Shown: positions 1,478 through 64,000 of the stretch, piece after piece | Layout of the letters: each line of letters begins with the position of its first letter | Numbering within the stretch: the first letter of the stretch is position 1 | From: the human T2T-CHM13v2.0 reference genome, Homo sapiens | Assembly (NCBI GenBank): GCA_009914755.4 | Contig: CP068257.2 | Span: 1,248,001-1,312,000 of the forward strand | Reading direction: 5' to 3' | DNA length: 64,000 nt | Translations under genes and position numbers: made by a program | The notes under the pieces: generated by a model | The model's database searches: none | What the model was told of the DNA's origin: nothing | The model's input: only the letters and a program-made list of their open reading frames with translations

Positions 1478-1529
1478 CTGTACATAAAATATCAAAGTAC
1501 CCAAGTACATCAAATGTAGATTGTATACC
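1478..1529 (+). repeat. Fused (deletion-junction) monomer: a C-type 5' part (…caaagtacccaag) joined to an I-type 3' part (tacatcaaatgtagattgtatacc). A second instance is at 4227-4277.
   Basis: ctgtacataaaatatcaaagtacccaag|tacatcaaat… was read directly at both sites, 2749 nt apart. The flanking ORFs end …QSTQVHQM (1519) and …QSTQVHQI (4267). Confidence 0.7.
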
Positions 1530-6909: not shown

Positions 6910-9545
6910 GTACATGAAATATCAAAGTTCACAAACTATATATTATATACTGTACATAAAATATCAAAATACCCAAGGTATATATTCTATACTGTACAAA
7001 AAATATCAAAGTACCCAAAGCATGTATTATATACTGTACATAAAATATGAAAGTACATCAAATATATATTTTATTCTGTACATAAAATATCAAAGTACAC
7101 CAAATATATATTCTATAGTGTACATAAAATATCAAAGTACCCAAACTATAGATTACATACTGTACATAGAATATGAAATTACATCAAAAATATATTAGGT
7201 ACATAAAATATGAAAGTACATCAAATATAGATTATATACTGTACATAAAATATCAAAGTACCCCAAATATATATTATATACTGTACATGAGATACCAAAG
7301 TTCACAAACTATATATTATATACTGTACATAAAATATCAATGTACCAAGGTATATATTCTATACTGTACAAAAAATATCAAAGTACCCAAAGCATGTGTT
7401 ATATACTGTACATAAAATATGAAAGTACATCAAATATATATTTTATTCTGTACATAAAATATCAAAGTACACCAAATATATATTCTATAGTGTACATAAA
7501 ATATCAAAGTACCCAAACTATACATTATATACTGTACATAAAATATGAAATTATATCAAAAATATATTAGGTACGTAAAATATGAAAGTACATCAAATAC
7601 AGATTATATACCTTACATAAAATATCAAAGTACCCCAAATATATATTATATACTGTACATGAAATATCAAAGTTCACAAACTATATATTATATACTGTAC
7701 ATAAAATAACAAAGTACCCAAGGTATATATTCTATACTGTAAAAAAATATCAAAGTACCCAAATCATGTATTATGTACTGTACATAAAATATGAAATTAC
7801 ATCAAATATATATTTTATTCTGCACATAAAATATCAAACTACAGCAAATATATATTCTATAGTGTACATAAAATATCAAAATACCCAAACTATACATTAT
7901 ATACTGTACAAAATATATGAAATTACATCAAATATATATTATATTAGGTACATAAAAGATCAAAGTACATCAAATATAGATTATATACTGTACATAAAAT
8001 ATCAAAGTACCCCAAATATATATTACATACTGTACATGAAATATCAAAGTTTACAAACTATATATTATATACTGTACATAAAATATCAATGTACCCAAGG
8101 TATATATTCTATACTGTACAAAAAATATCAAAGTACCCAAAGCATGTATTATATACTGTACATAAAATATGAAAGTACATCAAATATATATTTTATTCTG
8201 TACAAAAAATATCAAAGTACACCAAATATATATTCTATAGTGTACATAAAATATCAAAGTACCCAAACTATACATTATATACTGTACATAAAATATGAAA
8301 TGATATCAAATATATATTACATTAGGTACATAAAATATGAAAGTACATCAAATATAGATTATATACTGTACATAAAATATCAAAGTACCCAAATATATAT
8401 TATATACTGTACAGGAAATATCAAAGTTCACAAACTATATATTATATACTGTACATAAAATATCAATGTACCCAAGTATATATTCTATACTGTACAAAAA
8501 ATATCAAAGTACCCAAAGCATGTATTCTATACTGTACATAAAATATGAAAGTCCATCAAATATATATTTTATTCTGTACATAAAATATCAAAGTACACCA
8601 AATATATATTCTATACTGTACAAAAAATATCAAAGTATCCAAACTATACATTATATACTGTACATAAAATATGAAATTACATCAAATATATATTATATTA
8701 GGTACATAAAATATTAAAGTACATCAAATATAGATTAAATAGTGTACATAAAATATCAAAGTACCCCAAATATATATTATATACTGTACATGAAATATCA
8801 AAGTTCACAAACTATATATTATATACTGTACATAAAATATCAATGTACCCAAGTTATATATTCTATACTGTACAAAAAATATCAAACTACCCAAAGCATG
8901 TATTATATACTGTACATAAAATATGAAAGTACATCAAATATATATTTTCTTCTGTACAAAAAATATCAAAGTACACCAAATATATATTCTATAGCGTACA
9001 TAAAATATCAATGTACCCAAACTATACATTATATACTGTACATAAAATATGAAATTACATCAAAAATATATTATATTAGGTACGTAAAATATGAAAGTAC
9101 TTCAAAGATAGATTATATACCTTACATAAAATATCAAAGTACCCCAAATATATATTATATACTGTACATGAAATATCAAATTTCAGAAACTATGTATTAT
9201 ATACTGTACATAAACTAAAAAAGTACCCAAGGTATATATTCTATACTTTACAAAAAATATCAAAGTACCCAAAGCATGTATTATATACTGTACATAAAAT
9301 ATGAAAGCACATCAAATATATATTTTATTCTGTAAATAAAATATCAACATACCCTTACTATACATTATATACTGTACATAAAATATGAAATTACATCAAA
9401 TATATATCATATTAGGTGCATAAAATATGAAAGTACATCAAATATAGATTATATACTGTACATAAAATATCAAAGTACCCCAAATATATATTATATACTG
9501 TACATGAAATATCAAAGTTCACAAACTATATATTATATACTGTAC
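6910..9545 (+). repeat. Copy 2 of the 2590-bp tandem duplication. Identity to the following unit continues to about 9545. After that the third unit (9504 onward) is an older copy with about 4% nucleotide divergence.
   Basis: The raw sequence 6601-6962 is identical to 9191-9552 and diverges at caaaatacccaagg versus caatgtaaccaagg. ORF 9504 differs from ORF 6914 at roughly 10% of residues. Confidence 0.8.
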
Positions 9546-10443
9546 ATAAAATATCAATGTAACCAAGGTATATATTCTATAATGTACAAAAAATATCAAA
9601 GTACCCAAAGCATGTATTATATACTGTACATAAAATATGAAAGTGCATCAAATATATATTGTCTTCTGTACATAAAATATAAAAGTACACCAAATATATA
9701 TTCTATACTGTACATAAAATATCAAAGTACCCAAACTATACATTATATACTGTACATAAAATATGAAATTACATCAAAAATATATTAGGTATGTAAAATA
9801 TGAAAGTACATCAAAAATAGATTTTATACCTTACATAAAATATCAAAGTACCCCAAATATATATTATATACTGTACATGAAATACCAAATTTCAAAATCT
9901 ATATATTATATACTGTACATAAAATATCAAAGTACCCAAGGTATATGTTCTATAGTGTACAAAAAATATCAAAGTACCCAAAGCATGTATTATATACTGT
10001 ACATAAAATATGAAAGTACATCAAATATATATTTTATTCTGTACATAATATATCAAAGTACAACAAATATATATTCTATAGTGTACATAAAATATCAAAC
10101 TACCCAAACTATTCATTATATACTGTACATAAAAGATGAAATTACATCAAAAATATATTATATTAGGTACATAAAATATGAAAGTACATCAAATATAGAT
10201 TATATACTGCACGTAAAATATCAAAGTACCCCAAATATGTATTATATACTCTACATGAAATATCAAAGTTCACCAACTATATATTATATACTGTACATAA
10301 AATATCAATGTACCCAAGATATATATTCTATACTGTACAAAAAATATCAAAGTACCCAAAGCGTGTATTATATACTGTACATAAGATACGAAAGTACATC
10401 AAATATATATTTTATTCTGTACATAATATATCAAAGTACATGA
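7766..10443 (+). repeat. Older duplicated block, with a diverged partner at +6359 (14125-16826).
   Basis: The ORF pairs 7766/14125, 8466/14825, 8742/15101, 9504/15863 and 9763/16122 all sit at an offset of 6359. Divergence is a few percent on the left and falls to about 1% on the right (the 158-aa ORFs 8742 and 15101 differ at 3 residues). Confidence 0.75.
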
Positions 10444-13400
10444 AATATATATTCCATAGTGTACATAAAATATCAAAGTAGCCAAACTATACATTATATA
10501 CTGTACATAAAATATGAAATTACATCAAATATATATTATATTAGGTACATAAAATATGAAAGTACATCAAATATAGATTATATACTGTACATAAAATACC
10601 AAAGTACCCCAAATATATATTTTATACTGTACATGAAATATCAAAGTTCACAAACTATATATTTTATACTCTACATAAAATATCAAAGTACCCAAGGTAT
10701 ATATTCTATACTGTACAAAAAATATCAAAGTACCCAAAGCATGTATTATATACTGTACATAAAATATGAAAGTACATAAAATATATATTTTATACTGTAC
10801 ATAAAATATCAAAGTACACGAAATATATATTGTATACTGTACATAAAATATCAAAGTACCCAAACTATACATTATATACTGTACATAAAATATGAAATTA
10901 CATCAAACATATATTATATTAGGTACATAAAATATGAAAGTACATCAAATATAGATTATATACTGTACATAAAATACCAAAGTACCCCAAATATATTTTA
11001 TACTGTATATGAAATAACAAAGTTCACAAACTATATATTATATACTGTATAAAAAATATCAAAGTAAACAAGGTATATATTCTATACTGTAGAAAAAATA
11101 TCAAAGTACCGAAAGCATGTATTATATGCTGTACAAAAAATATGAAAGTACATCAAATATATATTTTATTCTGTACATAAAATATCAAAGTACACCAAAT
11201 ATATATTGTATACTGTACATAAAATATCAAATTATCCAAACTATACTTTATATACTGTACATAAAATATGGACTTACATCAAATATATATTATATTAGGT
11301 ACATAAAATATGAAAGTACATCAAATATAGATTATATACTCTACATAAAATATCAAAGTACCCAAATATATATTATATACTGTACATGAAATATCAAAGT
11401 TCACAAACTATATATTATATACTGTACATATAATATCAATGTACCCAAGTATATATTCTATACTGTACAAAAAATATCAAAGTACCCAAAGCATGTATTA
11501 TATACTGTACATAAAATATGAAAGTACATCAAATATATATTTTATTCTGTACATAAAATATCAAAGAACACCAAATATATATTCTATACTCTACATAAAA
11601 TATCAAAGTATCCAAACTATACATTATATACTGTACATAAAATATGAAATTACATCAAAAATATATTAGGTAGGTAAAATATGACAGTACATCAAATATA
11701 GATTATATACCTTACATAAAATATCAAAGTACCCCAAATGTATATTTTATACTGTACATGAAATATCAAAGTTCACAAAATATATATTATATACTGTACA
11801 TAAAATATCAAAGTACCCAAGTATATATACTATACTGTACAAAAAATATCAAAGTACCCAAACATTTATTACATTCTGTACATAAGATATGAAAATACAT
11901 CAAATATATATTTTATTCTGGACATAAAATATCAAAGTACACGAAATATATATTCTAGAGTTTACATACAATATCAAAGTACCCAAAATATACATTATAT
12001 ACTGTACATAAAATATGAAATTACATCATATATATATTATATTAGGTAGATAAAATATGAAAGTACATCAAATATAGATTATATACTGTACACAAAATAT
12101 CAAAGTACCCCAAATATATATTATATGCTTTATATGAAATATCAAAGTCCACAAACTATATATTATATACTGTACATAAAATATCAATGTACCCAAGTTA
12201 TATATTCTATACTGTACAAAAAATATCAAAGTACCCAAAGCATATATTATATACGGTACATAAAATATGAAAGTACATCAAATATATATTGTATTCTGTA
12301 CATAAAATATCAAAGTACACGAAATATATATTCTATAGTGTACATAAAATATCAAAGTACCCAAACTATACATTATATACAGTACATAAAAGATGAAATT
12401 ACATCAAAAATATATTATATTAGGTACATAAAATATGAAAGTACATCAAATATAGATTATATACTGTACATAAAATATCAAAGTACCCCAAATATATATT
12501 ATATACTCTACATGAAATATCAAAGTTCACAAACTATATATTATATACTGTACATAAAATATCAATGTACCCAAGGTATATATTCTATACGGTACAAAAA
12601 ATATCAAAGTACCCAAAGCATGTATTATATACTGTACATAAAATATGAAAGTACATCAAATATATATTTTATTCTGTACATAAAATATCAAAGTACACCA
12701 AATATATATTCTATAGTGTACATAAAATATCAAAGTACCCAAACTATACATTATATACTGTACATAAAATATGAAATTACATCAAATATATATTAGGTAT
12801 GTAAAATATGAAAGTACATCAAATATAGATTATATACCTTACATAAAATATCAAAGTACCCCAAATATATATTATATACTGTACATGAAATATCAAATTT
12901 CACAAACTATATATTATATACTGTACATAAAATATCAAAGTACACAAGTTATATATTCTATACTGTACGAAAAATATCAAAGTACACAAAGCATGTATTA
13001 TATACTGTACATAAAATATGAAAGTACATCAAATATATATTTTATTCTGTACATAAAATATCAAAGTACACCAAATATATATTCTATAGTGTACATAAAA
13101 TATCAAAGTACCCAAACTATACATTATATACTGTAGATAAAATATGAAATTACATCAAATATATATTATATTAGTTACGTAAAATAAGAAAGTACATCAA
13201 TTATAGATTATATACCATACATAAAATATCAAAGTACCCCAAATATATATTTTATACTGTACATGAAATATGAAAGTTCACAAACTATATATTATATACT
13301 GTACATAAAATACCAAAGTACCCAAGGTATATATTCTATACTGTACAAAATATATCAAAGTACCCAAAGCATGTATTATATAATGTACATAAAATATGAA

Positions 13401-14124
13401 AGTACATCAAATATATATTTTATTCTGTACAAAAAATATCAAAGTACACCAAATATATATTCTATAGTGTACATAAAATATCAAAGTACCCAAACTGTAC
13501 ATTATATACTGTACATAAAATATGAAATTACATCAAATATATATTATATTAGGTACATAAAATATGAAAGAACATCAAATATAGATTATATACTGTACAT
13601 AAAATACCAAAGTACCCGAAATATATATTATATACTGTACATGAAATATCAAAGTTCACAAACTATATATTATATACTGTACATAAAATATCATTGTACC
13701 AAGGTATATATTCTATACTGTACAAAAATATCAAAGTACCCAAAGCATATATTTTATACTGTACATAAAATATGAAAGTACATCATATATATATTTTTTT
13801 CTCTACATAAAATATCAAAGTACACCAAACATATATTCTATACTGTACATAAAATATCAAAGTACCCAAACTATACATTATATACTGTACATAAAAGATG
13901 AAATTACATCAAAAATATATTATATTAGGTACATTAAATATGAAAGTACATCAAATATAGATTATATACTGCACATAAAATATCAAAGTACCCCAAATAT
14001 ATATTATATACTCTACATGAAATATCAAAGTTAACCAACTATATATTATATACTGTACATAAAATATCAATGTACCCAAGGTATATATTCTATACTGTAC
14101 AAAAAATAACAAAGTACCCAAAAC

Positions 14125-16826
14125 ATGTATTATGTACTGTACATAAAATATGAAAGTACATCAAATATATATTTTATTCTGTACATAAAATATCAAAGTA
14201 CACCAAATATATATTCTATAGTGTACATAAAATATCAAAGTACCCAAACTATACATTATATACTGTACAAAAAATATGAAATTACATCAAATATATATTA
14301 TATTAGGTACATAAAAGATGAAAGTACATCAAATATAGATTATATACTGTACATAAAATATCAAAGTACCCCAAATATATATTATACACTGTACATGAAA
14401 TATCAAAGTTCACAAACTATATATTATATACTGTACATAAAATATCAATATACCCAAGGTATATATTCTATACTGTACCAAAAATATCAAAGTACCCAAA
14501 GCATGTATTATATACTGTACATAAAATATGAAAGTACATCAAATATATATTTTATTCTGTACAAAAAATATCAAAGTACACCAAATATATATTCTATAGT
14601 GTACATAAAATATCAAAGTACCCAAACTATACATTATATACTGTACATAAAATATGAAATGATATCAAATATATATTATATTAGGTACATAAAATATGAA
14701 AGTACATCAAATATAGATTATATACTGTACATAAAATATCAAAGTACCCAAATATATATTATATACTGTACAGGAAATATCAAAGTTCACAAACTATATA
14801 TTATATACTGTACATAAAATATCAATGTACCCAAGTATATATTCTATACTGTACAAAAAATATCAAAGTACCCAAAGCATGTATTCTATACTGTACATAA
14901 AATATGAAAGTACATCAAATATATATTTTATTCTGTACATAAAATATCAAAGTACACCAAATATATATTCTATACTGTACATAAAATATCAAAGTATCCA
15001 AACTATACATTATATACTGTACATAAAATATGAAATTACATCAAATATATATTATATTAGGTACATAAAATATGAAAGTACATCAAATATAGATTAAATA
15101 GTGTACATAAAATATCAAAGTACCCCAAATATATATTATATACTGTACATGAAATATCAAAGTTCACAAACTATATATTATATACTGTACATAAAATATC
15201 AATGTACCCAAGTTATATATTCTATACTGTACAAAAAATATCAAACTACCCAAAGCATGTATTATATACTGTACATAAAATATGAAAGTACATCAAATAT
15301 ATATTTTCTTCTGTACAAAAAATATCAAAGTACACCAAATATATATTCTATAGCGTACATAAAATATCAATGTACCCAAACTATACATTATATACTGTAC
15401 ATAAAATATGAAATTACCTCAAAAATATATTATAATAGGTACGTAAAATATGAAAGTACTTCAAAGATAGATTATATACCTTACATAAAATATCAAAGTA
15501 CCCCAAATATATATTATATACTGTACATGAAATATCAAATTTCACAAACTATGTATTATATACTGTACATAATCTAAAAAAGTACCCAAGGTATATATTC
15601 TATACTTTACAAAAAACATCAAAGTACCCAAAGCATGTATTATATACTGTACATAAAATATGAAAGCACATCAAATATATATTTTATTCTGTAAATAAAA
15701 TATCAACGTACCCTTACTATACATTAAATACTGTACATAAAATATGAAATTACATCAAATATATATCATATTAGGTGCATAAAATATGAAAGTACATCAA
15801 ATATAGATTATATACTGTACATAAAATATCAAAGTACCCCAAATATATATCATATACTGTACATGAAATATCAAAGTTCACAAACTATATATTATATACT
15901 GTACATAAAATATGAATGTAACCAAGGTATATATTCTATAATGTACAAAAAATATCAAAGTACCCAAAGCATGTATTATATACTGTACATAAAATATGAA
16001 AGTGCATCAAATATATATTGTCTTCTGTACATAAAATATAAAAGTACACCAAATATATATTCTATACTGTACATAAAATATCAAAGTACCCAAACTATAC
16101 ATTATATACTGTACATAAAATATGAAATTACATCAAAAATATATTAGGTATGTAAAATATGAAAGTACATCAAATATAGATTTTATACCTTACATAAAAT
16201 ATCAAAGTACCCCAAATATATATTATATACTGTACATGAAATACCAAATTTCAAAATCTATATATTATATACTGTACATAAAATATCAAAGTACCCAAGG
16301 TATATATTCTATAGTGTACAAAAAATATCAAAGTACCCAAAGCATGTATTATATACTGTACCAAAGCATGTATTATATACTGTACATAAAATATGAAAGT
16401 ACATCAAATATATATTTTATTCTGTACATAATATATCAAAGTACAACAAATATATATTCTATAGTGTACATAAAATATCAAACTACCCAAACTATTCATT
16501 ATATATTGTACATAAAAGATGAAATTACATCAAAAATATATTATATTAGGTACATAAAATATGAAAGTACATCAAATATAGATTATATACTGCACATAAA
16601 ATATCAAAGTACCGCAAATATGTATTATATACTCTACATGAAATATCAAAGTTCACCAACTATATATTATATACTGTACATAAAATATCAATGTACCCAA
16701 GGTATATATTCTATACTGTACAAAAAATATCAAAGTACCCAAAGCATGTATTATGTACTGTACATAAAATATGAAAGTACATCAAATATATATTTTATTC
16801 TGTACATAAAATATCAAAGTACACCA
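14125..16826 (+). repeat. Partner of 7766-10443 at offset 6359. It carries a private 24-bp tandem micro-duplication at 16337-16384.
   Basis: Same ORF anchors as the partner block. The string ccaaagcatgtattatatactgta occurs twice in tandem at 16337-16360 and 16361-16384. The partner at about 9977 has it once. Confidence 0.75.
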
Positions 16827-19800
16827 AATATATATTCTATAGTGTACATAAAATATCAAAGTACCCAAACTATAAATTATATACTGTATAAAAAATATGA
16901 AATTACATCAAATATATATTATATTAGGTACATAAAAGATGAAAGTACATCAAATATAGATTATATACTGTACATAAAATATCAAAGTACCCCAAATATA
17001 TATTATATACTGTACATGAAATATCAAATTTCACAAACTATATATTATATACTGTACATAAAATATCAAAGTACCCAAGGTATATATTCTATTCTGTACA
17101 AAAAATATCAAAGTACCCAAAGCATGTATTATATACTGTACATAAGATATGAAAGTACATCAAATATATATTTTATTCTGTACATAAAATATCAAAGTAC
17201 ACGAAATATATATTCTATAGTGTACATAAAATATCAAAGTACCCAAACTATACATTACATACTGTCCATAAAATATGAAATTACATCAATTATATATTAT
17301 ATTAGGTACATAAAATATGAAAGAACTTCAAATATAGATTATATACTGTACATAAAATATCAAAGTTAACCAAATATATATTTTATGCTGTACATGAAAT
17401 ATCAAAGTTCACAAACTATATATCATATACTGTACATAAAATATCAAAGTACCCAAGGTATATATTCTATACTGTACAAAAAATATCAAAGTACCCAAAT
17501 CATGTATTATGTACTGTACATAAAATATGAAAGTTCAGCAAATATATATTTTATTCTGTACATAAAATATAAAAGTACACGAAATATATATTCTACACTG
17601 TACAGAAAATATCAAATTACCCAAACTATACATTATATACTGTACATAAAATATGAAATTACATCAAATATATATTATATTAGGTACATAAAATATGAAA
17701 GTACATCAAATATAGATTATATACTGTACATAAAATATCAAAGTACCCCAAATATATATTATATACTGTACATGAAATATCAATGTACCCAAGGTATATA
17801 TTCTATACTGTACAAAAAATATCAAAGTACCCAAAGCATGTATTATATGCTGTACATAAAATATGAAAGTACATCAAATATATATTTTATTCTGTACAAA
17901 AAATACTAAAGTACCCCAAATATATATTATATACTGTACATGAAATATCAAAGTTCACAAACTATATATTATATACTGTACATAAAATATCAATGTACCC
18001 ATGGTACATATTCTATAGTGTACAAAAAATATCAAAGTACCCAAAGCAAGTATTTTATGCTGTACATAAAATATGAAATTACATCAAATATATATTTTAT
18101 TCTGTACATAAAATATCAAAGTACACCAAATATATAATCTACACTGTACATAAAATATCAAATTACCCAAACTATACATTATATACTGTACATAAAAGTT
18201 GAAATTACATCAAATATATATTATATTAGGTACATAAAATATGAAAGTACATCAAATATTTATTATATACTGTACATAAAATACCAAAGTACCCCAAATA
18301 TATATTTTATACTGTACATGAAATATCAAAGTACATAAACTATATATTATATACTGTACAAAAAATATCAAAGTACCCAAGGTATATCTTCTATACTGTA
18401 CAAAAAATATCAAAGTACCCATAGCATGTATTATATACTGTACATAAAATATGAAAGTACATCAAATATATATTTCATTCTGTACATAAAATATCAAAGT
18501 ACACCAAATATATATTCTATAGTGTACATAAAGTATCAAAGTACCCAAACTATACATTATATACTGTACATAAAAGATGAAATTACATCAAATATATATT
18601 ATATTAGGTACATAAAATATGAAAGTACGTCAAATATAGATTATATACTGTACATAAAATACCAAAGTACCCCAAATATATATTTTATACTGTACATGAA
18701 ATATCAAAGTTCACAAACTATATATTATATACTGTACATAAAATATCAATGTACCCAAGTATATATTCTATACTGTACAAAAAATATCAAAGTACCCAAA
18801 GCATGTATTACATGCTCTACATAAAATATGAAATTACATCAAATATATATTTTATTCTGTACAAAAACTATCAAAGTACACCAAATATATATTCTATAGT
18901 GTACATAAAATATCAAAGTACCCAAACTATACATTATATACTGTACATAAAATATGAAATTACATCAAATATATATTATATTAGTTACATAAAATATGAA
19001 AGTACATCAAATATAGATTATATACTGTACATAAAATACCAAAGTACCCCAAATATATATTTTACACTGTTCATGAAATATCAAAGTACACAAAATATAT
19101 ATTATATACTGCTCATAAAATATCAAAGTACCCAAGGTATATATTCTATACTGTACAAAAAATATCAAAGTACCCAAAGCATGTATTATATACTGTACAT
19201 AAAATATGAAAGTACATCAAATATATATTTTATACTGTACATGGAATATCAAAGTTCACAAACTATATATTATATACTGTACATAAAATATCAAAGTACT
19301 CAACGTATATATTCTATACTGTACAAAAAATATCAAAGTACCCAAAGCATGTATTATATACTGTACATAAAATACGAAAGTACATGAAATATATATTTTA
19401 TTCTGTACAAAAAATATCAAAGTACACCAAATATATATTCTATACTGTACATAAAATATCAAAGTACCCAAACTATACATTATATACTGTACAAAAAATA
19501 TGAAATTACATCAAATATATATTATATTAGGTACATAAAATATGAAAGTACATCAAATATAGATTATATACTGTACATAAAATATCAAAGTACCCCAAAT
19601 ATATATTATATACTGTACATGAAATATCAAAGTTCACAAACTATATATTATATACTGTACATAAAATCTGAATGTACCCATGGTATATATTCTATACTGT
19701 ATAAAAAATATCAAATTACCCAAACCTTGTATTACATACTGTACATCAAATATGAACGTACATAAAATGTATATTTTATTCTGTACAAAAAATATCAAAG

Positions 19801-21499
19801 CACACCAAATATATATTCTATAGTGTACATAAAATATCAAAGTACCCAAACTATACATTATATACTGTACATAAAATATGAAATTACATCAAATATATAT
19901 TATATTAGGTAGATAAATTATGAAAGAACATCAAATATAGATTATAGACTCTACATAAAATACCAAAGTACCACAAATATATATTTTATACTGTACATGA
20001 AATATCAAATTTCACAAATTATATATTATATACTGCACATAAAATATCAAAGTACCCTAGGTATATATTCTATACTGTACAAAAAATATCAAAGAACACA
20101 AAGCATGTATTATATACTGTACATGAAATATGAAAGTACATCAAATATATATTTTATTCTGTACATAAAATATCAAAGTACACCAAATATATATTCTATA
20201 GTGTACATAAAATATTCAAGTACCCAAACTATACATTATATACTGTACATAAAATATGAAATTACATCAAATATATATTATATTAGGTACATAAAATATG
20301 AAAGTACATCAAATATAGATTATATACTGTACATAAAATACCAAAGTACCCCAAATATATATTTTATAGTGTACATGAAATATCAAAGTTCACAAACTAT
20401 ATATTATATACTGCAAATAAAATATCAAAGTACCCAAGTTATATATTCTATACTGTACAAAAAATATCAAAGTACCCAAAGCATGTATTATATACTGTAC
20501 ATAAAATATGAAAGTACATCAAATATATATTTTATACTGTACATAAAATATCAAAGTACACCAAAAATATATTCTATAGTGTACATAAAATATCAAAGTA
20601 CCCAAACTATACATTATATACTGTACATAAAATATGAAATTACATCAAATATATATTATATTAGGTACATAACATATGAAAGTACATCAAATATAGATTA
20701 TATACTGTACTTAAAATACCAAAGTACCTCAAATATATATTTTACACTGTACATGAAATATCAAAGTTCACAAACTATATATTATATACTGTACATAAAA
20801 TATCAAAGTACCCAAGGTATATATTCTATACTGCAGAAAAAATATCAAAGTACCCAAAGCATGTATTATATACTGTACATAAAATATGAAAGTACATCAA
20901 ATATATATTTTGTCCTGTATATAAAGTATCAAAGTACACCAAATATATATTCTATAGTTTACATATAATATCAAAGTATCCAAACTATACATTATATACT
21001 GTACATAAAATATGAAATTACATCGAATATATATTATATTAGGTACAGAAAATATGAAAGTACATCAAATATAGATTATATACTGTACATAAAATACCAA
21101 AGTACCCCAAATATATATTTTATACTGTACATGAAATATCAAAGTTCACAAACTATATATTATATACTGCACATAAAATATGAAAGTATCCAAGGTATAT
21201 ATTTTGTACTGTACAAAAAATATCAAAGTACCCAAAGCATGTATTATATACTGTACATAAAATATGAAAGTGCATCAAATATATATTTTATTCTGTACAT
21301 AAAATATCAAAGTACACCAGATATATATTCTATAGTGTACATAAAATATCAAAGTACCCAAACTATACATTATATACTGTACGTAAAATATGAAATTACA
21401 TCAAATATATATTAGGTACATAAAATATGAAAGTATATCAAATATAGATTATATACTGTACATATAATATCAATGTACCCCAAATATATATTTTACACT

Positions 21500-24000
21500 C
21501 TACATGAAATATCAAAATTCACAAACCATATATTATATACTGTACATAAAATATCAAAGTACCCAAGGTATATATTCTATACTGTACAAAAAATATCAAA
21601 GTACCCAAAGCATGTATTATATACTGTACATAAAATATGAAAGTACATCAAATATATATTTTATTCTGTACATAAAATATCAAAGTACACCAGATATATA
21701 TTCTATAGTGTACATAAAATAACAAAGTAAAAAAACTATAAATTATATACTGTACATAAAATATGAAATTACATCAAATATATATTAGGTACATAAAATA
21801 TGAACGTACATCAAATATAGATTATATACTGTACATAAAATATCAATGTACCCCAAATATATATTTTATACTCTACATGAAATATCAAAGTTCACAAACC
21901 ATATATTATATACTGTACATAAAATATCAAAGTACCCAAGGTATATATTCTATGCTGTACAAAAAATATCAAAGTACCCAAAGCATGTATTATATACTGT
22001 ACTTAAAATATGAAACTACATCAAATATATATTTTATTCTGTACAAAAAATATCAAAGTACACCAGATATATATTCTATAGTGTACATAAAATATAAAAG
22101 TACCCAAACTATACATTATATACTGTACATAAAATATGAAATTACATCAAATATGTATTGTATTAGGTACATAAAATATGAAAGCATATCAAATATAGAT
22201 TATATACTGTATATTAAATACCAAAGTACCCCAAATATATATTTTATACTGTACATCAAATATCAAAGTTCACAAACTATATATTATATACTGTACATTA
22301 AATATCAAAGTACCCATGATATATATTCTATACTGTACAAAAAATATCAAAGTCCCCAAAGCGTGTATTATATACTGTACATAAAATATGAAAGTACATC
22401 AAATATATATTTTATTCTGTACATAAAATATCAAATTACACCAGATATATATTCTATAGTGTACATAAAATATCAAAGTACCCAAACTATACATTATATA
22501 CTGTACATAAAATATGAAATTACATCAAATTTATATTAGGCACATAAAATATGAAAGTACATCAAATATAGATCATATACTGTACATAAAATATCAAAGT
22601 ACCCCAAATATATATTATATACTCTACATGAAATATCAAAGTTCACAAACTATATATTATATACTGTACATAAAATATCAAAGTACCCAAGGTATATATT
22701 CTATACTGTACAAAAAATATCAAAGTATACAAAGCATGTATTATATACTGTATATAAAATATGAAAGTACATTAAATATATATTTTATTCTGTACATAAA
22801 ATATCAAAGTACACCAGATATATATTCTATAGTGTACATAAAATAACAAAGTACACAAACTGTAAATTATATACTGTACATAAAATATGAAATTACATCA
22901 AATATATATTAGGTACATAATATATGAAAGTACATCAAATATAGATTATATACTGTACATATAATATCAATGTACCCCAAATATATATTTTATACTCTAC
23001 ATGAAATATCAAAGTTCACAAACCATACATTATATAGTGTACATAAAATATCAAAGTACCCAAGGTATATATTTTATACTGTACAAAAAATATCAAAGTA
23101 CCCAAAGCATGTATTATATACTGTACATAAAATATGAAAGTACATCAAATATATATTTTATTCTGTACATAAAACATCAAAGTACACCAGATATATATTC
23201 TATAGAGTACATAAAATATCAAAGTACCCAAACTATACATTATATACTGTACATAAAATATGAAATTACATCAAATATATATTATATTAGGTACATAAAA
23301 TATGAAAGTACATCAAATATAGATTATATACTGTACATAAAATATCAAAGTACCCCAAATATATATTATATACTCTACATGAAATATCAAAGTTCACAAA
23401 CTATATATTATATACTGTACAAAAAATATCAAAGTACCCAAGGTATATATTCTATACTGTACAAAAAATATCAAAGTACCCAAAGCATGTATTATATACT
23501 GTACATAAAATATGAAAGTACATCAAATATATATTTTATTCTGTACATAATATATCAAAGTACACCAGATATATATTCTATAGTGTACATAAAATAACAA
23601 AGTAAAAAAACTATTCATTATATACTGTACATAAAATATGAGATTACATCAAATATATATTATATTAGGTACATAAAATATGAAAGTACATCAGATATAG
23701 ATTATATACTGTACATAAAATATCAAAGTACCCCAAATATATATTATATACTCTACATGAAATATCAAAGTTCACAAACTATATATTATATACTGTACAT
23801 AAAATATCAAAGTACCCAAGGTATATATTCTATACTGTACAAAAAATATCAAAGTACCCAAAGCATGCATTATATACTGTATATAAAATATGAAAATACA
23901 TTAAATATATATTTTATTTTGTACGTAAAATATCAAAGTACACCAGAAATATATTCTATAGTGTACATAAAATAACAAAGTACACAAACTATAAATTATA
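21500..24000 (+). repeat. Domain II block with a paralogous partner at +4501 (about 26000-28500), roughly 97-99% identical.
   Basis: ORF pairs 21504/26005, 21763/26264, 22514/27015 (110 aa, 1 difference) and 23001/27502 all lie at an offset of 4501. Confidence 0.7.
22861..23989 (+). repeat. Copy 1 of a 1129-bp tandem duplication (3 HORs). Copy 2 is 23990-25118.
   Basis: The 198-aa ORFs 23001..23597 and 24130..24726 are near-identical. Both carry the rare STPDIYSIEYIKYQ and ends …IIYQSTPDIYSIVYIK / …IIYQSTPDIYSIVYKK. The flanks 23581-23990 and 24710-25119 match and share the rare gcatgcatt and gtacgtaaaat / gtaggtaaaat variants. Confidence 0.75.
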
Positions 24001-26440
24001 TACTGTATGTAAAATATGAAATTACATCAAATATATATTAGGTACATAAAATATGAAAGTACATCAAATATAGATTATATACTGTACATATAATATCAAT
24101 GTACCCCAAATATATATTTTATACTCTACATGAAATATCAAAGTTCACAAACCATACATTATATACTGTACATAAAATATCAAAGTACCCAAGGTATATA
24201 TTCTATACTGTACAAAAAATATCAAAGTACCCAAAGCATGTATTATATACTGTACATAAAATATGAAAGTACATCAAATATATATTTTATTCTGTACATA
24301 AAACATCAAAGTACAGCAGATATATATTCTATAGAGTACATAAAATATCAAAGTACCCAAACTATACATTATATACTGTACATAAAATATGAAATTACAT
24401 CAAATATATATTATATTAGGTACATAAAATATGAAAGTACATCAAATATAGATTATATACTGTACATAAAATATCAAAGTACCCCAAATATATATTATAT
24501 ACTCTACATGAAATATCAAAGTTCACAAACTATATATTATATACTGTACAAAAAATATCAAAGTACCCAAGGTATATATTCTATACTGTACAAAAAATAT
24601 CAAAGTACCCAAAGCATGTATTATATACTGTACATAAAATATGAAAGTACATCAAATATATATTTTATTCTGTACATAATATATCAAAGTACACCAGATA
24701 TATATTCTATAGTGTACAAAAAATAACAAAGTAAAAAAACTATTCATTATATACTGTACATAAAATATGAGATTACATCAAATATATATTATATTAGGTA
24801 CATAAAATATGAAAGTACATCAGATATAGATTATATACTGTACATAAAATATCAAAGTACCCCAAATATATATTATATACTCTACATGAAATATCAAAGT
24901 TCACAAACTATATATTATATACTGTACATAAAATATCAAAGTACCCAAGGTATATATTCTATACTGTACAAAAAATATCAAAGTACCCAAAGCATGCATT
25001 ATATACTGTATATAAAATATGAAAATACATTAAATATATATTTTATTTTGTAGGTAAAATATCAAAGTACACCAGATATATATTCTATAGTGTACATAAA
25101 ATAACAAAGTACACAAACTATAAATTATATACTGTATGTAAAATATGAAATTACATCAAATATATATTAGGTACATAAAATATGAAAGTACATCAAATAT
25201 AGATTATATACTGTACATATAATATCAATGTACCCCAAATATATATTTTATACTCTACATGAAATATCAAAGTTCACAAACCATACATTATATACTGTAC
25301 AGAAAATATCAAAGTACCCAAGGTATATATTCTATAGTGTACAAAAAATATCAAAGTACCCAAAGCATGTATTATATACTGTACATAAAATATGAAAGTA
25401 CATCAAATATATATTTTATTCTGTACATAAAATATCAAAGTACACCAGATATATATTCTATAGTGTACATAAAATATCAAAGTACCCAAACTATACATTA
25501 TATACTGTACATAAAATATGAAATTACATCAAATATATATTAGGTACATAAAATATGAAAGTACATCAAATATAGATTATATACTGTACATAAAATATCA
25601 AAGTACCCCAAATATATATTATATACTGTACATGAAATATCAAAGTTCACAAACTATATATTATATACTGTACATAAAATATCAAAGTACACAAGGTATA
25701 TATTCTATACTGTACAAAAAATATCAAAATACCCAAAGCATGTATTATACACTGTACATAAAATATGAAATTACATCAAATATATATTTTATTCTGTACA
25801 TAAAATATCAAAGTACACCAGATATATATTCTATAGTGTACATAAAATATCAAAGTACCCAAACTATACATTATATACTGTACATAAAATATGAAATTAC
25901 ATCAAATTTATATTAGGTACATATAATATGAAAGTACATCAAATATAGATTATATACTGTACATAAAATATCAAAGTACCCCAAATATATATTATATACT
26001 CTACATGAAATATCAATGTTCACAAACTATATATTATATACTGTACATAAAATATCCAAGTACCCAAGGTATATATTCTATACTGTACAAAAAATATGAA
26101 AGTATCCAAAGCATGTATTATATACTGTATATAAAATATGAAAGTACATCACATATATATTTTATTCTGTACATAAAATATCAAAGTACACCAGATATAT
26201 ATTCTATAGTGTACATAAAATAACAAAGTAAAAAAACTATAAATTATATACTGTTCATAAAATATGAAATTACATCAAATATATATTAGGTACATAAAAT
26301 ATGAACGTATATCAAATATAGATTATATACTGTTCATAAAATATCAATGTACCCCAAATATATATTTTATACTCTACATGAAATATCAAAGTTCACAAAC
26401 CATATATTATATACTGTACATAAAATATCAAAATACCCAA

Positions 26441-29400
26441 GGTATATATTCTATACTATACAAAAAATATCAAAGTACCCAAAGCATGTATTATATACTG
26501 TACATAAAATATGAAAGTACATCAAATATATATTTTATTCTGTACATAAAATATCAAAGTACACCAGATATATATTCTATAGTGTACATAAAATATAAAA
26601 GTACCCAAACTATACATTATATACTGTACATAAAATATGAAATTACATCAAATATGTATTATATTAGGTACATAAAATATGAAAGCATATCAAATATAGA
26701 TTATATACTGTATATTAAATACCAAAGTACCCCAAATATATATTTTATACTGTACATCAAATATCAAAGTTCACAAACTATATATTATATACTGTACATA
26801 AAATATCAAAGTACCCATGATATATATTCTATACTGTACAAAAAATATCAAAGTACCCAAAGCGTGTATTATATACTGTACATAAAATATGAAAGTATAT
26901 CAAATATATATTTTATTCTGTACATAAAATATCAAAGTACACCAGATATATATTCTATAGTGTACATAAAATATCAAAGTACCCAAACTATACATTAAAT
27001 ACTGTACATAAAATATGAAATTACATCAAATTTATATTAGGGACATAAAATATGAAAGTACATCAAATATAGATCATATACTGTACATAAAATATCAAAG
27101 TACCCCAAATATATATTATATACTCTACATGAAATATCAAAGTTCACAAACTATATATTATATACTGTACATAAAATATCAAAGTACCCAAGGTATATAT
27201 TCTATACTGTACAAAAAATATCAAAGTATACAAAGCATGTATTATATACTGTATATAAAATATGAAAGTACATTAAATATATATTTTATTCTGTACATAA
27301 AATATCAAAGTACACCAGATATATATTCTATAGTGTACATAAAATAACAAAGTACACAAACTGTAAATTATATACTGTACATAAAATATGAAATTACATC
27401 AAATATATATTAGGTACATAATATATGAAAGTACATCAAATATAGATTATATACTGTACATATAATATCAATGTACCCCAAATATATATTTTATACTCTA
27501 CATGAAATATCAAAGTTCACAAACCATACATTATATACTGTACATAAAATATCAAAGTACCCAAGGTATATATTCTATACTGTACAAAAAATATCAAAGT
27601 ACCCAAAGCATGTATTATATACTGTACATAAAATATGAAAGTACATCAAATATATATTTTATTCTGTACATAAAACATCAAAGTACACCAGATATATATT
27701 CTATAGAGTACATAAAATATCAAAGTACCCAAACTATACATTATATACTGTACATAAAATATGAAATTACATCAAATATATATTATATTAGGTACATAAA
27801 ATATGAAAGTACATCAAATATAGATTATATACTGTACATAAAATATCAAAGTACCCCAAATATATATTATATACTCTACATGAAATATCAAAGTTCACAA
27901 ACTATATATTATATACTGTACAAAAAATATCAAAGTACCCAAGGTATATATTCTATACTGTACAAAAAATATCAAAGTACCCAAAGCATGTATTATATAC
28001 TGTACATAAAATATGAAACTACATCAAATATATATTTTATTCTGTACATAATATATCAAAGTACACCAGATATATATTGTATAGTGTACATAAAATAACA
28101 AAGTAAAAAAACTATTCATTATATACTGTACATAAAATATGAGATTACATCAAATATATATTATATTAGGTACAGAAAATATGAAAGTACATCAGATATA
28201 GATTATATACTGTACATAAAATATCAAAATACCCCAAATATATATTATATACTCTACATGAAATATCAAAGTTCACAAACTATATATTATATACTGTACA
28301 TAAAATATCAAAGTACCCAAGGTATATATTCTATACTGTACAAAAAATATCAAAGTACCCAAAGCATGTATTATATACTGTACATAAAATATGAAAGTAC
28401 ATCAAATATATATTTTATTCTGTACATAAAATATCAAAGTACACCAGATATATATTCTATAGTGTACATAAAATATCAATGTACCCAAACTATACATTAT
28501 ATACTGTACATAAAATATGAAATTACATAAAATATATATTATATTAGGTACATAAAATATGAAAGCACATCAAATATAGATTATATACTGTACATTAAAT
28601 ACCAAAGTACCCCAAATATATATTTTATACTGTACATCAAATATCAAAGTTCACAAACTATATATTATATACTGTACATAAAATATCAAAGTACCCAAGG
28701 TATATATTCTATACTGTACAAAAAATATCAAAGTACCCAAAGCATGTATTATATACTGTATATAAAATATGAAAATACATTAAATACATATTTTAATCTG
28801 TACATAAAATATCAAAGTACACCAGATATATATTCTATAGTGTACATAAAATAACAAAGTACACAAACTATAAATTATATACTGTACATAAAATATGAAA
28901 TTACATCAAACATATATTAGGTACATAAAATATGAAAGTACATCAAATATAGATTATATACTGTACATATAATATCAATGTACCCCAAATATATATTATA
29001 TACTCTACATGAAATATCAAAGTTCACAAACCATACATTATATACTGCACATAAAATATCAAAGTACCCAAGGTATATATTCTATAGTGTACAAAAAATA
29101 TCAAAGTACCCAAAGCATGTATTATATACTGTACATAAAATATGAAAGTATATCAAATATATATTTTATTCTGTACATAAAATATCAAAGTACACCAGAT
29201 ATATATTCTATAGTGTACATAAAATATCAAAGTACCCAAACTATACATTATATACTGTACATAAAATATGAAATTACATCAAATATATATTAGGTACATA
29301 AAATATGAAAGTACATCAAATATAGATTATATACTGTACATAAAATATCAAAGTACCCCAAATATATATTATATACTCTACATGAAATATCAACGTTCAC

Positions 29401-32400
29401 AAACTATATATTATATACTGTACATAAAATATCAAAGTACCCAAGGTATATATTCTATACTGTACAAAAAATATCAAAGTACCCAAAGCATGTATTATAT
29501 ACTGTATATAAAATATGAAAGTACATCACATATATATTTTATTCTGTACATAAAATATCAAAGTACACCAGATATATATTCTATAGTGTACATAAAATAA
29601 CAAAGTAAAAAAACTATAAATTATATACTGTACATAAAATATGAAATTACATCAAATATATATTAGGTACATAAAATATGAACGTACATCAAATATAGAT
29701 TATATACTGTACATAAAATATCAATGTACCCCAAATATATATTTTATACTCTACATGAAATATCAAAGTTCACAAACCATATATTATATACTGTACATAA
29801 AATATCAAAGTACCCAAGGTATATATTCTATACTATACAAAAAATATCAAAGTACCCAAAGCATGTATTATATACTGTACATAAAATATGAAAGTACATC
29901 AATTATATATTTTATTCTGTACATAAAATATCAAAGTACACCAGATATATATTCTATAGTGTACATAAAATATAAAAGTACCCAAACTATACATTATATA
30001 CTGTACATAAAATATGAAATTACATCAAATATGTATTATATTAGGTACATAAAATATGAAAGCATATCAAATATAGATTATATACTGTATATTAAATACC
30101 AAAGTACCCCAAATATATATTTTGTACTGTACATCAAATATCAAAGTTCACAAACTATATATTATATACTGTACATAAAATATCAAAGTACCCAAGGTAT
30201 ATATTCTATACTGTACAAAAAATATCAAAGTACCCAAAGCGTGTATTATATACTGTACATAAAATATGAAAGTACATCAAATATATATTTTATTCTGTAC
30301 ATAAAATATCAAAGTACACCAGATATATATTCTATAGTGTACATAAAATATCAAAGTACCCAAACTATACATTATATACTGTACATAAAATATGAGATTA
30401 CATCAAATATATATTATATTAGCTACATAAAATATGAAAGTACATCAGATATAGATTATATACTGTACATAAAATATCAAAGTACCCCAAATATATATTA
30501 TATACTCTACATGAAATATCAAAGTTCACAAACTATATATTATATACTGTACATAAAATATCAATGTACCCAAGGTATATATTCTATACTGTACAAAAAA
30601 TATCAAAGTACCCAAAGCATGTATTATATACTGTATACAAAATATGAAAATACATTAAATATATATTTTATTCTGTACATAAAATATCAAAGTACACCAG
30701 ATATGTATTCTATAGTGTACATAAAATAACAAATTACAAAAACTATAAATTATATACTGTACGTTAAATATGAAATTACATCAAATATATATTAGGTACA
30801 TAAAATATGAAAGTACATCAAATATAGATTATATACTGTACATATAATATCAATGTACCCCAAATATATATTTTATACTCTACATGAAATATCAAAGTTC
30901 ACAAACCATACATTATATACTGTACATAAAATATCAAAGTACCCAAGGTATATATTCTATACTGTACGAAAAATATCAAAGTACCCAAAGCATGTATTAT
31001 ATACTGTACATAAAATATGAAAGTACATCAAATATATATTTCATTCTGTACATAAAATATCAAAGTACACCAGATATATATTCTATAGTGTACATAAAAT
31101 ATCAAAGTACCCAAACTATACATTATATACTGTACATAAAATATGAAATTACATCAAATATATATTAGGTACATAAAATATGAAAGTATATCAAATATAG
31201 ATTATATACTGTACATATAATATCAATGTACCCCAAATATATATTTTATACTCTACATGAAATATCAAAATTCAAAAACCATATATTATATACTGTACAT
31301 AAAATATCAAAGTACCCAAGGTATATATTCTATACTGTACAAAAAATATCAAAGTACCCAAAGCATGTATTATATACTGTACATAAAATATGAAAGTACA
31401 TCAAATATATATTTTATTCTGTACATAAAATATCAAAGTACACCAGATATATATTCTATAGTGTACATAAAATATCAATGTACCCAAACTATACATTATA
31501 TACTGTACATAAAATATGAAATTACATCAAATATATATTATATTAGGTACATAAAATATGAAAACACATCAAATATAGATTATATACTGTACATTAAATG
31601 CCAAAGTACCCCAAATATATATTTTATACTGTACATCAAATATCAAAGTTCACAAACTATATATTATATACTGTACATAAAATATCAAAGTACCCAAGGT
31701 ATATATTCTATACTGTACAAAAAATATCAAAGTACCCAAAGCATGTATTATATACTGTACATAAAATATGAAAGTACATCAAATATATATTTTATTCTGT
31801 ACTTAAAACATCAAAATACACCAGATATATATTCTATAGTGTACATAAAATATCAAAGTACCCAAACTATACATTATATACTGTACATAAAATATGAAAT
31901 TACATCAAATATATATTAGGTACATAAAATATGAAAGTACATCAAATATAGATTATATACTGTACATAAAATATCAAAGTACCCAAATATATATTATATA
32001 CTCTACATGAAATATCAAAGTTCACAAACTATATATTATATACTATACATAAAATATCAAAGTACCCAAGGTATCTATTGTATACTGTACAAAATATATC
32101 AAAGTACCCAAAGCATGTATTATATACTCTACATAAAATATGAAAGTACATCAAATATATATTTTATTCTGTACATAAAATATAAAAGTACACCAGATAT
32201 ATATTCTATAGTGTACATAAAATAACAAAGTACACAAACTATAAATTATATACTGTACGTAAAATATGAAATTACATCAAATATATATTAGGTACATAAA
32301 ATATGAAAGTACATCAAATATAGATTATATACTGTACATAAAATATCAAAGTACCCCAAATATATATTATATACTGTATATGAAATATCAAAGTTCACAA

Positions 32401-37380: not shown

Positions 37381-37567
37381 TACATAAAATATGAAATTAC
37401 ATCAAATATATATTAGGTACATAAAATATGAAAGTACATCAAATATAGATTATATACTGTACATATAATATCAATGTACCCCAAATATATATTTTATACT
37501 CTACATGAAATATCAAAGTTCACAAACCATACATTATATACTGTACATAAAATATCAAAGTACCCAA

Positions 37568-63900: not shown

Positions 63901-64000
63901 GGTATATATTCTATACTGTACAAAAAATATCAAAGTACCCAAAGCATGTATTATATACTGTACATAAAATATGAAAGCACATCAAATATATATTTTATTC

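What the first reader, a model, noticed from the sequence alone, without database searches (positions are those of the whole stretch)
20950..21300. Abrupt boundary between two satellite subfamilies
Upstream, F monomers read caccaaat and HORs are mutually diverged. Downstream, essentially all F monomers read caccagat, a stop-bearing G variant appears, and kb-scale blocks are about 99.5-100% identical. The switch happens within one HOR. This suggests two independently homogenised domains, an old array on the left and a recently expanded one on the right, meeting here. Such junctions can mark the edge of an active or recently amplified core.
Basis: seen in the sequence. Interest (0 to 1): 0.55.

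Follow-up and report, generated by a model that had tools for sequence, protein, structure and literature searches.

The report
Variant-domain boundary inside one satellite array
The window is one unbroken array of a 42-base AT-rich satellite that matches the published description of human HSat1A, and at about 21.3 kb it changes sharply but in register from an older repeat variant to a derived, recently block-duplicated one, which is a real but ordinary outcome of local tandem-repeat expansion.

Summary
The whole window is one same-strand array of a 42-bp satellite (21% GC). It is organised as a 9-monomer higher-order repeat (HOR) of 378 bp, or 373 bp in one variant. These features fit published descriptions of human HSat1A. 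All 51 F monomers left of 21309 carry A at position 12. Of the 118 to the right, 117 carry G. The lone downstream 'caccaaat' lies in a different monomer type. A change-point scan gives a single differentiation peak, exactly at 21309.

- These are not two subfamilies. Monomer order and register continue across the junction, only one of 378 columns is fixed, and the two consensus HORs differ by five events.
- The right side is not more homogenised at the HOR level. Adjacent-HOR identity is about 94% and identity to the domain's own consensus about 96.5% on both sides.
- The real difference is the recency of multi-kb block duplication. 76% of right HORs have a twin at 99% identity or better, against 29% on the left, and the left also holds a near-perfect 2.6-kb duplication.
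- G is the derived state. It is shared by all diverged right subtypes and predominates in independent public contigs.

The best reading is a HOR-haplotype boundary produced by local in-register unequal exchange. A link to CENP-A is untestable here and not expected. Interest is low.

The parts
1..63998 (+). Single uninterrupted 42-bp AT-rich satellite array of about 1534 monomers, organised as a 9-monomer HOR (my labels F-G-H-I-A-B-C-D-E). It has one orientation throughout.
   Evidence: TRF reports one array with period 42, 1533 copies and 17- and 25-bp sub-periods. GC is 0.21-0.22 and GC skew is uniformly negative.
1..21308 (+). Left domain, carrying the ancestral HOR haplotype with F position 12 = A in 51 of 51 F monomers. 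Units are mostly 378 bp, with 9 irregular units. A private variant, C-monomer position 3 T, is present in 24 of 42 canonical HORs.
21309..64000 (+). Right domain, carrying the derived HOR haplotype with F position 12 = G in 117 of 118 F monomers. It holds at least 8 HOR subtypes that are about 5-6% apart and interleaved in 2-3-HOR super-units. Units are 373 bp (64) or 378 bp (35). It extends to the end of the window.
21216..21320 (+). Junction interval, in register, covering the D and E monomers and the first 12 bases of F. No insertion, inversion or foreign sequence is present.
   Evidence: Haplotype markers seen only on the left reach about 21135. Mismatch density to right-side paralogues falls from about 7.5% (21057-21215) to about 1% after 21215. 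The first fixed G is at 21320. Per-monomer exact-copy counts switch from left-type to right-type at 21309.
20931..21308 (+). Last left-type HOR (378 bp). Its nearest relative is only 95.2% identical and lies on the left (20175).
21309..21681 (+). First right-type HOR (373 bp, with a 5-bp deletion in H). It is 99.2% identical to the HOR at 31062.
21724..21765 (+). It is always preceded by an F monomer with position 41 T>A.
4236..9823 (+). Left-domain 2.59-kb tandem duplication. Its component HORs are 99.5-100% identical, which shows that recent block duplication is not exclusive to the right side.
28227..51011 (+). Right-domain 9.6-kb duplicated blocks, 28227-37795 and 41443-51011, at lag 13216 and 99.56% identity.
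47248..57937 (+). Right-domain 5.7-kb tandem duplication, 47248-52948 and 52237-57937, at lag 4989 and 99.4% identity.

Best explanation
The window lies inside one tandem array of a 42-bp AT-rich satellite with a 9-monomer, 378-bp higher-order repeat (HOR). This fits published descriptions of human HSat1A, also called classical satellite I or SAR. At 21216-21320 the array passes, in register, from one HOR-haplotype domain to another of the same HOR family.

The inferred order of events is as follows.
1. The ancestral HOR had A at F position 12, as on the left.
2. An A>G change arose once in an HOR lineage.
3. That lineage expanded locally and diversified into several subtypes, including G', a 5-bp deletion in H, A3T and B14C. 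These became arranged as 2-3-HOR super-units.
4. Multi-kb blocks of these super-units were then copied very recently, leaving 0-0.6% divergence.

The left domain went through the same kind of process. Its own variants were involved and its block duplications are on average older. No sequence has been exchanged across the junction since the two sides separated.

The proposed mechanism is in-register unequal sister-chromatid exchange, or replication-associated duplication and deletion, acting locally within the array. The anatomy and the relative ages are shown by the data. The molecular mechanism is inferred from established models of satellite evolution.
For: **Anatomy**
- One array, one strand, one HOR order. 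The F-to-F spacing across the junction is exactly 378 bp.

**Partition**
- F12 is A in 51 of 51 left F monomers and G in 117 of 118 right ones.
- The differentiation scan has a single peak, at 21309.
- No 97% cluster is shared between the sides.
- The best identity between any left and any right HOR is 97.6%.
- No long near-identical block crosses the junction.

**Polarity and timing**
- G is derived, because the other eight monomer types have A at position 12.
- G predates the recent duplications, because it is fixed across right subtypes that differ by 5-6%.
- Independent public contigs include G-type arrays that lack the right-private G' and 5-bp H-deletion variants, namely L001 and L014.

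**Same family on both sides**
- Only 1 of 378 columns is fixed, and the consensus HORs differ by 5 events.

**Recency**
- 76% of right HORs have a twin at 99% identity or better, against 29% on the left. Adjacent-HOR identity is equal on both sides.

**The G haplotype is real and widespread**
- 18 metagenome-derived stretches carry it, with about 130 G against 7 A. Most contigs carry a single allele.

**Published context**
- HSat1A is a 42-bp (17+25) repeat that mostly forms 378-bp 9-mers.
- Nested repeats in human satellite arrays 'evolve and expand hyper-locally', and layered expansion with HOR-haplotype domains is documented for alpha satellite.
- A de novo 6.8-kb deletion and large length changes have been seen in HSat1A arrays in pedigrees.
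Against: - Only one side of the right domain is inside the window, so the symmetric 'older flanks' expected under layered expansion cannot be seen.
- There is no gradient of relatedness to the right domain with distance from the junction (Spearman 0.14, p 0.39).
- Without the F12 column, one right subtype (14 copies, the 22055 type) groups with left HORs rather than with the other right subtypes. The internal branches are very short. So either recombination or gene conversion has shuffled variants, or the G allele was spread among pre-existing subtypes rather than inherited from one founder.
- Species and family identity rest on matching descriptive features and not on alignment to a reference sequence.
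Confidence: 0.72

Rival explanations
1. Two arrays of separate origin were juxtaposed. The right domain would have been brought in by an ectopic exchange between HSat1A arrays, between chromosomes or over a long distance, rather than growing out of the local array. This is the strong form of the reader's 'two independently homogenised domains meeting here'.
For: The boundary is abrupt, with no transitional HORs, and relatedness shows no gradient with distance from the junction. No HOR cluster is shared and the best cross-boundary identity is 97.6%. The G-type haplotype is widespread elsewhere, while the left-private marker C3T is nearly absent from other contigs.
Against: The junction is perfectly in register, with the same monomer order. 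Only one column is fixed, and between-side identity is 92.8% against 93.5-94.7% within sides. Without F12, a right subtype is sister to a left group that includes the junction-adjacent HORs 20175, 20553 and 20931. An in-register homologous exchange would look the same whether local or ectopic, so this rival is weakened but not excluded.
Confidence: 0.12
2. The F12 G allele was spread across already diverged HOR subtypes of the right domain by gene conversion, possibly GC-biased because the change is A>G, rather than by descent from one founder HOR.
For: G is fixed across subtypes that are 5-6% apart. Polymorphisms at A22, A29 and E34 are shared between the two domains. Without F12, the 22055-type right subtype groups with left HORs. 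The same A>G change at position 12 is also seen in 14 of 111 I monomers on the right and in none of 57 on the left. That could reflect conversion between monomers.
Against: Conversion would have to stop exactly at 21309 and reach 117 of 118 copies. Descent with later diversification explains fixation more simply. Arrays that carry G but otherwise show the ancestral states at the marker sites exist elsewhere (L001 and L014), as expected if G came first.
Confidence: 0.1
3. Assembly artefact: a false join or collapse between two similar satellite regions at about 21.3 kb.
For: Satellite arrays are prone to mis-assembly, and a join made through an overlap would also be in register. No reads are available to check.
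Against: Sequence just left of the junction is only about 92-95% identical to right-side paralogues, which is a poor substrate for a false overlap with accurate long reads. Both haplotypes exist independently in other public contigs. There is no coverage-like anomaly or abrupt indel at the junction.
Confidence: 0.05

Closest known systems
Human satellite 1A (HSat1A, formerly SAR, classical satellite I)
   Same: It shares a 42-bp monomer built from a 17-bp and a 25-bp sub-unit, extreme AT richness (21-22% GC here, about 23% reported for clones) and a predominant 378-bp 9-monomer higher-order repeat. The satellite also turns up as a contaminant in many unrelated metagenome assemblies, some of them chimeric with bacterial DNA. 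That would fit a host or handler genome such as human, but it is only suggestive.
   Different: No features were found to differ, but no reference sequence was available, so identity was not tested by alignment. A closely related ape orthologue cannot be excluded. The chromosome of origin is unknown.
HOR-haplotype ('HOR-hap') domains and layered expansion in alpha-satellite arrays (Altemose et al., as read)
   Same: Contiguous domains of one HOR family are distinguished by a few variants. Boundaries are sharp, the younger domain shows recent large duplications ('macro-repeats'), and the older variant lies at the flank.
   Different: The satellite family is different (42-bp HSat1A-like, not 171-bp alpha satellite). 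It is pericentromeric rather than kinetochore-forming, so the link to CENP-A and hypomethylated regions is not expected. Only one flank is visible, so symmetry cannot be judged. Here the younger domain is no more uniform at the single-HOR level.
Nested tandem repeats that expand hyper-locally in HSat and beta-satellite arrays (NTRprism analysis)
   Same: Periodicity changes along the array. The left side is dominated by 378 bp. The right side is dominated by 373 bp plus composite 751- and 1124-bp periods, which reflects alternation of subtypes.
   Different: The published statement is general. This particular boundary and its variants were not found described in the papers searched.

Membership tests
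HSat1A (SAR / classical human satellite I) | 42-bp monomer | tested here: met
   TRF period 42 with 1533 copies. 1417 of 1534 monomers are exactly 42 bp.
HSat1A (SAR / classical human satellite I) | Monomer composed of alternating A (17 bp) and B (25 bp) units | tested here: met
   TRF repeatedly reports 17-bp (GTACATAAAATATGAAA) and 25-bp (GTACATCAAATATAATTATATACT) sub-periods within the array. The feature is as stated.
HSat1A (SAR / classical human satellite I) | Extreme AT richness (most AT-rich satellite; clones about 23% GC) | tested here: met
   GC is 0.208-0.223 in every 2-kb window.
HSat1A (SAR / classical human satellite I) | Predominant 378-bp 9-monomer higher-order repeat | tested here: met
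   152 canonical 9-monomer units. 378 bp is the commonest unit length on the left. On the right, units are 373 bp (with a 5-bp deletion) or 378 bp. The feature is as stated.
HSat1A (SAR / classical human satellite I) | Sequence identity to the reference consensus (Dfam DF0001062 / clone pTRI-6 L01057) | not testable with these tools
   No reference sequence is held. Literal searches for 17-19-mers in the paper library found nothing.
HSat1A (SAR / classical human satellite I) | Location on human chromosomes 3, 4, 13 or the acrocentric short arms | not testable with these tools
   The window has no flanking unique sequence, and no human genome collection is available.
HOR-haplotype boundary / layered expansion | Same HOR structure and register on both sides | tested here: met
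   The FGHIABCDE order is kept on both sides, and 20931 to 21309 is 378 bp.
HOR-haplotype boundary / layered expansion | Variants partitioned in space, with HORs clustering by domain | tested here: met
   The F12 partition is perfect. No 97% cluster is shared. The side label needs 4-6 tree steps against about 37 at random. The scan has a single peak. The domains are not reciprocally monophyletic.
HOR-haplotype boundary / layered expansion | Younger domain carries derived variants and more recent duplications | tested here: met
   G is derived relative to the eight other monomer types. Nearest-neighbour identity is 99.7% on the right against 97.5% on the left.
HOR-haplotype boundary / layered expansion | Older layers flank the young core symmetrically on both sides | not testable with these tools
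   The right domain runs off the end of the window.
Active centromere core (CENP-A / hypomethylated region) | CENP-A enrichment and a dip in CpG methylation | not testable with these tools
   No epigenetic data are available. CpG is very sparse, at 2.2 per kb on the left and 0.96 per kb on the right. In the cited work CENP-A sits on alpha-satellite HOR arrays, with HSat1A described as interrupting them.

The most novel reading that the evidence does not exclude
The boundary could be the footprint of an ectopic, possibly inter-chromosomal, in-register exchange between HSat1A arrays. It could instead mark a G allele driven through diverged HOR subtypes by GC-biased gene conversion that stops at a fixed point. 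Either would make this junction a usable marker for tracing exchange or conversion dynamics in the least-studied classical human satellite.
Probability: 0.12. Interest if true: 0.4.

Novelty: new member of a known kind. Interest (0 to 1): 0.15.

Why it matters
Sharp haplotype boundaries inside satellite arrays record how the arrays grow. They can serve as landmarks for assembly validation and for comparing haplotypes across people. This one shows a useful point for an HSat1A-type array. A 'young' domain can differ from an 'old' one only in how recently multi-HOR blocks were copied. Neighbouring repeats can be just as dissimilar in both. Identity-to-consensus plots would therefore miss the boundary, while nearest-neighbour identity and private variants reveal it. 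Beyond that, it is an expected product of unequal exchange and does not open a new question.

Tried and rejected
- **Self-BLAST for long duplicates** returned only the self-hit. I replaced it with a direct per-lag identity scan.
- **Literal sequence searches in the paper library** for 17-19-mers of the monomer found nothing. Family identity therefore rests on descriptive features.
- **Exact-product look-ups** of three satellite ORFs in public assemblies, meant to identify the source genome, found nothing.
- **Metagenome contigs as a second copy of the junction.** None is the same locus, and the best identity is 85-97%. Contig L013, with allele order 'AGGGG', and L007 were not followed up to see whether the lone A is in an F monomer.
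- **Non-satellite flanks in contigs L006, L008 and L012** are bacterial and so are chimeric assemblies. The first 4.6 kb of L003 is a degraded, low-quality copy of the satellite itself. None of these helps identify the species. No Alu, CENP-B box or HSat2/3 motifs were found.
- **A coding reading of the 'stop-bearing' variant** was rejected. The long + strand ORFs (up to 415 aa) follow mechanically from a 42-bp (14-codon) repeat that lacks stops in one frame.
- **A gradient of relatedness towards the boundary** was tested and not found.
- **Higher homogeneity of the right domain at the HOR level** was tested and not found.

Full report
**What the window is**

Tandem Repeats Finder reports one array covering 1-63998, with period 42, about 1533 copies and 79% matches. 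It also finds recurring 17- and 25-bp sub-periods. GC content is 0.21-0.22 in every 2-kb window and GC skew is negative throughout. There is therefore no inversion and no foreign insert.

A wrap-around alignment to the 42-bp consensus splits the window into 1534 monomers. Of these, 1417 are exactly 42 bp and 77 are 37 bp. The monomers fall into nine types that recur in a fixed order, which I label F-G-H-I-A-B-C-D-E. This gives a 9-monomer higher-order repeat (HOR) of 378 bp, or 373 bp when monomer H carries a 5-bp deletion.

These features match what the literature says of human HSat1A, formerly called SAR or classical satellite I. It has a 42-bp monomer made of a 17-bp A unit and a 25-bp B unit, it is the most AT-rich part of the genome, and it is predominantly organised as 378-bp 9-mers. 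No reference sequence was available to me, so I could not confirm this by alignment.

The satellite also occurs in 18 stretches of public metagenome contigs, several of them chimeric with bacterial DNA. That would fit a host or handler genome such as human, but it is only suggestive.

**Checking the observation**

CACCAAAT occurs 36 times: 35 at or before 20937, plus one at 40320. CACCAGAT occurs 106 times, all at or after 21315.

With monomers typed, position 12 of the F monomer gives a cleaner result:
- It is A in 51 of 51 F monomers to the left of 21309.
- It is G in 117 of 118 to the right, with a single C at 61636.
- The CACCAAAT at 40320 lies in an A-type monomer, so the partition among F monomers is perfect.

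The last A is at 20942 and the first G at 21320, exactly one 378-bp HOR apart.

I call it G' (AAAGTACACAAACTATAAATT...). It is coupled to a T>A change at F position 41, and it is present in 51 of 110 canonical right HORs and 0 of 42 left HORs. The term 'stop-bearing' reflects only that one + strand frame of a 42-bp (14-codon) repeat is otherwise mostly open. That frame gives mechanical ORFs of up to 415 aa, and nothing suggests coding.

The near-identical kb-scale blocks on the right are also real:
- 28227-37795 matches 41443-51011 (9.6 kb, 99.56%).
- 47248-52948 matches 52237-57937 (5.7 kb, 99.4%).
- Several blocks of 1-3 kb match at 98.4-98.9%.

One correction is needed. The left side also holds a 2.59-kb tandem duplication (4236-7233 against 6826-9823) whose HORs are 99.5-100% identical. 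It also has further copies at 14.1-16.4 kb.

**Is the boundary real and unique?**

I extracted 152 canonical 9-monomer HORs, 42 on the left and 110 on the right, into a 378-column alignment. Five results bear on the question.
- A sliding comparison of 12 HORs on each side gives one peak of differentiation, 0.187, exactly at 21309. Beyond about 2.5 kb on either side of it the value stays at or below 0.05.
- At 97% identity, no HOR cluster contains members from both sides.
- The best identity between any left and any right HOR is 97.6%.
- No block of 1 kb or more at 98.5% identity or better crosses 21.0-21.3 kb.
- On a neighbour-joining tree the left/right label needs 4 changes, or 6 if the F12 column is removed. 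Shuffled labels need about 37, with a minimum of 31.

They are met only weakly for the tree, as described below.

**Where exactly is the junction?**

The last left HOR (20931-21308) carries minor variant combinations found only on the left, reaching about 21135. Its nearest relative is 95.2% identical.

I compared this region with the paralogues of the first right HOR. Mismatch density is about 7.5% over 21057-21215. There is one mismatch in 21216-21308, and about 1% mismatch from 21309 onward. Exact-copy counts per monomer switch from left-type to right-type at 21309.

The exchange point therefore lies in 21216-21320. The D and E monomers in that interval are too consensus-like to narrow it further. 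The junction is in register and contains nothing unusual.

**How different are the two sides?**

They differ much less than 'two subfamilies' implies.
- Only F12 is fixed among 378 columns. The other differences are polymorphisms private to one side.
  - On the right, at 20-60% frequency: G', the 5-bp deletion in H, A3T, B14C, D32T and E10T.
  - On the left: C3T, in 24 of 42 HORs.
- The two consensus HORs differ by five events.
- Mean identity is 93.5% within the left, 94.7% within the right and 92.8% between them.
- The right side is not more uniform at the HOR level. Adjacent HORs are 94.1% identical on the right and 93.9% on the left. Identity to the domain's own consensus is 96.5% against 96.4%.

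The right domain is a mosaic of at least eight subtypes. The G'-bearing 373-bp subtype recurs at every second or third position. This produces composite periods of 751 and 1124 bp.

What does differ is how recently multi-HOR blocks were copied. Median nearest-neighbour identity is 99.7% on the right and 97.5% on the left. A twin at 99% or better exists for 76% of right HORs and 29% of left HORs. The 16.4-21.3 kb stretch just left of the junction has no close copies at all, with nearest-neighbour identity of 94-97.6%.

**Polarity and order of events**

All eight other monomer types have A at position 12, so G in F is the derived state.

G is fixed across right subtypes that are 5-6% apart. It is therefore older than the subtype diversification and much older than the block duplications, unless it was spread by gene conversion.

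Independent contigs support G coming first. Stretches L001 and L014, both from one long metagenome contig, have G in all F monomers but lack the G' and 5-bp H-deletion markers and show A29 = G. Across the 18 metagenome stretches G outnumbers A by about 130 to 7. Most contigs carry only one allele. The right-private markers recur there, while the left-private C3T is almost absent.

The G haplotype family therefore appears to be the predominant form among these contigs. The left domain looks like a minority, ancestral-state remnant with its own private variants.

**Mechanism**

The simplest account is local, in-register unequal exchange, or replication-associated duplication and deletion, within a single array. 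A derived HOR lineage expands, diversifies and is re-copied in larger blocks. A neighbouring older domain evolves separately, and the limit of spread is a sharp in-register boundary.

This is the process described as layered expansion and HOR-haplotype domains in alpha satellite, and as nested repeats 'expanding hyper-locally' in other human satellites. Pedigree data show de novo multi-kb deletion and large length changes in HSat1A arrays.

The anatomy and the relative ages are shown by the data. The molecular mechanism is inferred.

**Caveats and rivals**

- Without the F12 column the left HORs are not a clade. One right subtype (the 22055 type, 14 copies) is sister to a left group that includes the junction-adjacent HORs, on very short branches. 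Polymorphisms at A22, A29 and E34 are also shared between the sides. This points either to recombination among HOR variants or to conversion-driven spread of G. I give the conversion-driven rival 0.10.
- The same A>G change occurs in 14 of 111 I monomers on the right and in none of 57 on the left. This is unexplained.
- Relatedness shows no gradient with distance from the junction. The right haplotype is also widespread elsewhere. Both leave room for an ectopic origin of the right domain (0.12).
- An assembly mis-join cannot be excluded without reads. It is unlikely, because the flank just left of the junction is only about 92-95% identical to right-side paralogues (0.05).

**Verdict**

There is a real, unique boundary between an ancestral-state domain and a derived, recently block-amplified domain. 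Both belong to one HOR family and are not separate subfamilies. The young side is not more homogenised at the single-HOR level, and the old side has recent duplications too. The link to an 'active core' is untestable here and not expected for this satellite.

This is a new instance of a well-known kind of feature, and interest is low.

Noticed in passing
window 1-64000, + strand (e.g. 16122-17369, 29641-30729): One + strand reading frame is largely free of stop codons, giving 89 ORFs of 90 aa or more (up to 415 aa), all on the + strand. This is a mechanical result of a 42-bp (14-codon) repeat.
   Followed up: partly
window 21309-64000, I monomers: The same A>G change at monomer position 12 ('caGat') is present in 14 of 111 I-type monomers on the right and in none of 57 on the left. 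It could be parallel mutation or conversion between the F and I monomers.
   Followed up: no
window 743, 34060, 34559, 47276, 47775, 52764, 57753, 62760: There are truncated 126-bp units consisting of F-D-E only (G-H-I-A-B-C deleted). Seven are on the right, mostly propagated by the large duplications, and one is on the left.
   Followed up: partly
window 3655, 6378, 8968, 15327 (also 1247, 16041, 17572, 18873): Irregular HOR units occur in the left domain. F-less 8-monomer units (G-H-I-A-B-C-D-E) follow a normal HOR four times. There are also units with extra I-A-B, A-B-C-D-E or B-C-D-E segments. In all, 9 of 51 left units are irregular, against 8 of 117 right units.
   Followed up: partly
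window 1-21308 vs 21309-64000: CpG density is very low and differs between the sides, at 2.2 per kb on the left and 0.96 per kb on the right. Methylation-based profiling would have little signal here.
   Followed up: no
L006 1-1220, L008 1-11612, L012 1-878 and 1274-2184: Metagenome contigs join this satellite directly to bacterial coding sequence. They are chimeric assemblies of host-contaminant and bacterial reads.
   Followed up: partly
L002 (Ga0115841_10218) 328-1486 (-) and 2440-3225 (+): This contig carries the satellite in both orientations, which means an inversion junction or an assembly artefact. The window itself has no inversion.
   Followed up: no
L013 (AACY020042998.1) and L007 (BNJT01002868.1): These contigs contain both the CACCAAAT and CACCAGAT words (allele order 'AGGGG' and 'GAGG...'). 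They might be other A/G junctions, or the A might lie in a non-F monomer as at window 40320.
   Followed up: no
L003 1-4617: The first 4.6 kb of this stretch of contig BNJS01002444.1 looks like a heavily degraded, GC-enriched copy of the same satellite on the opposite strand. It is probably low-quality long-read sequence.
   Followed up: partly
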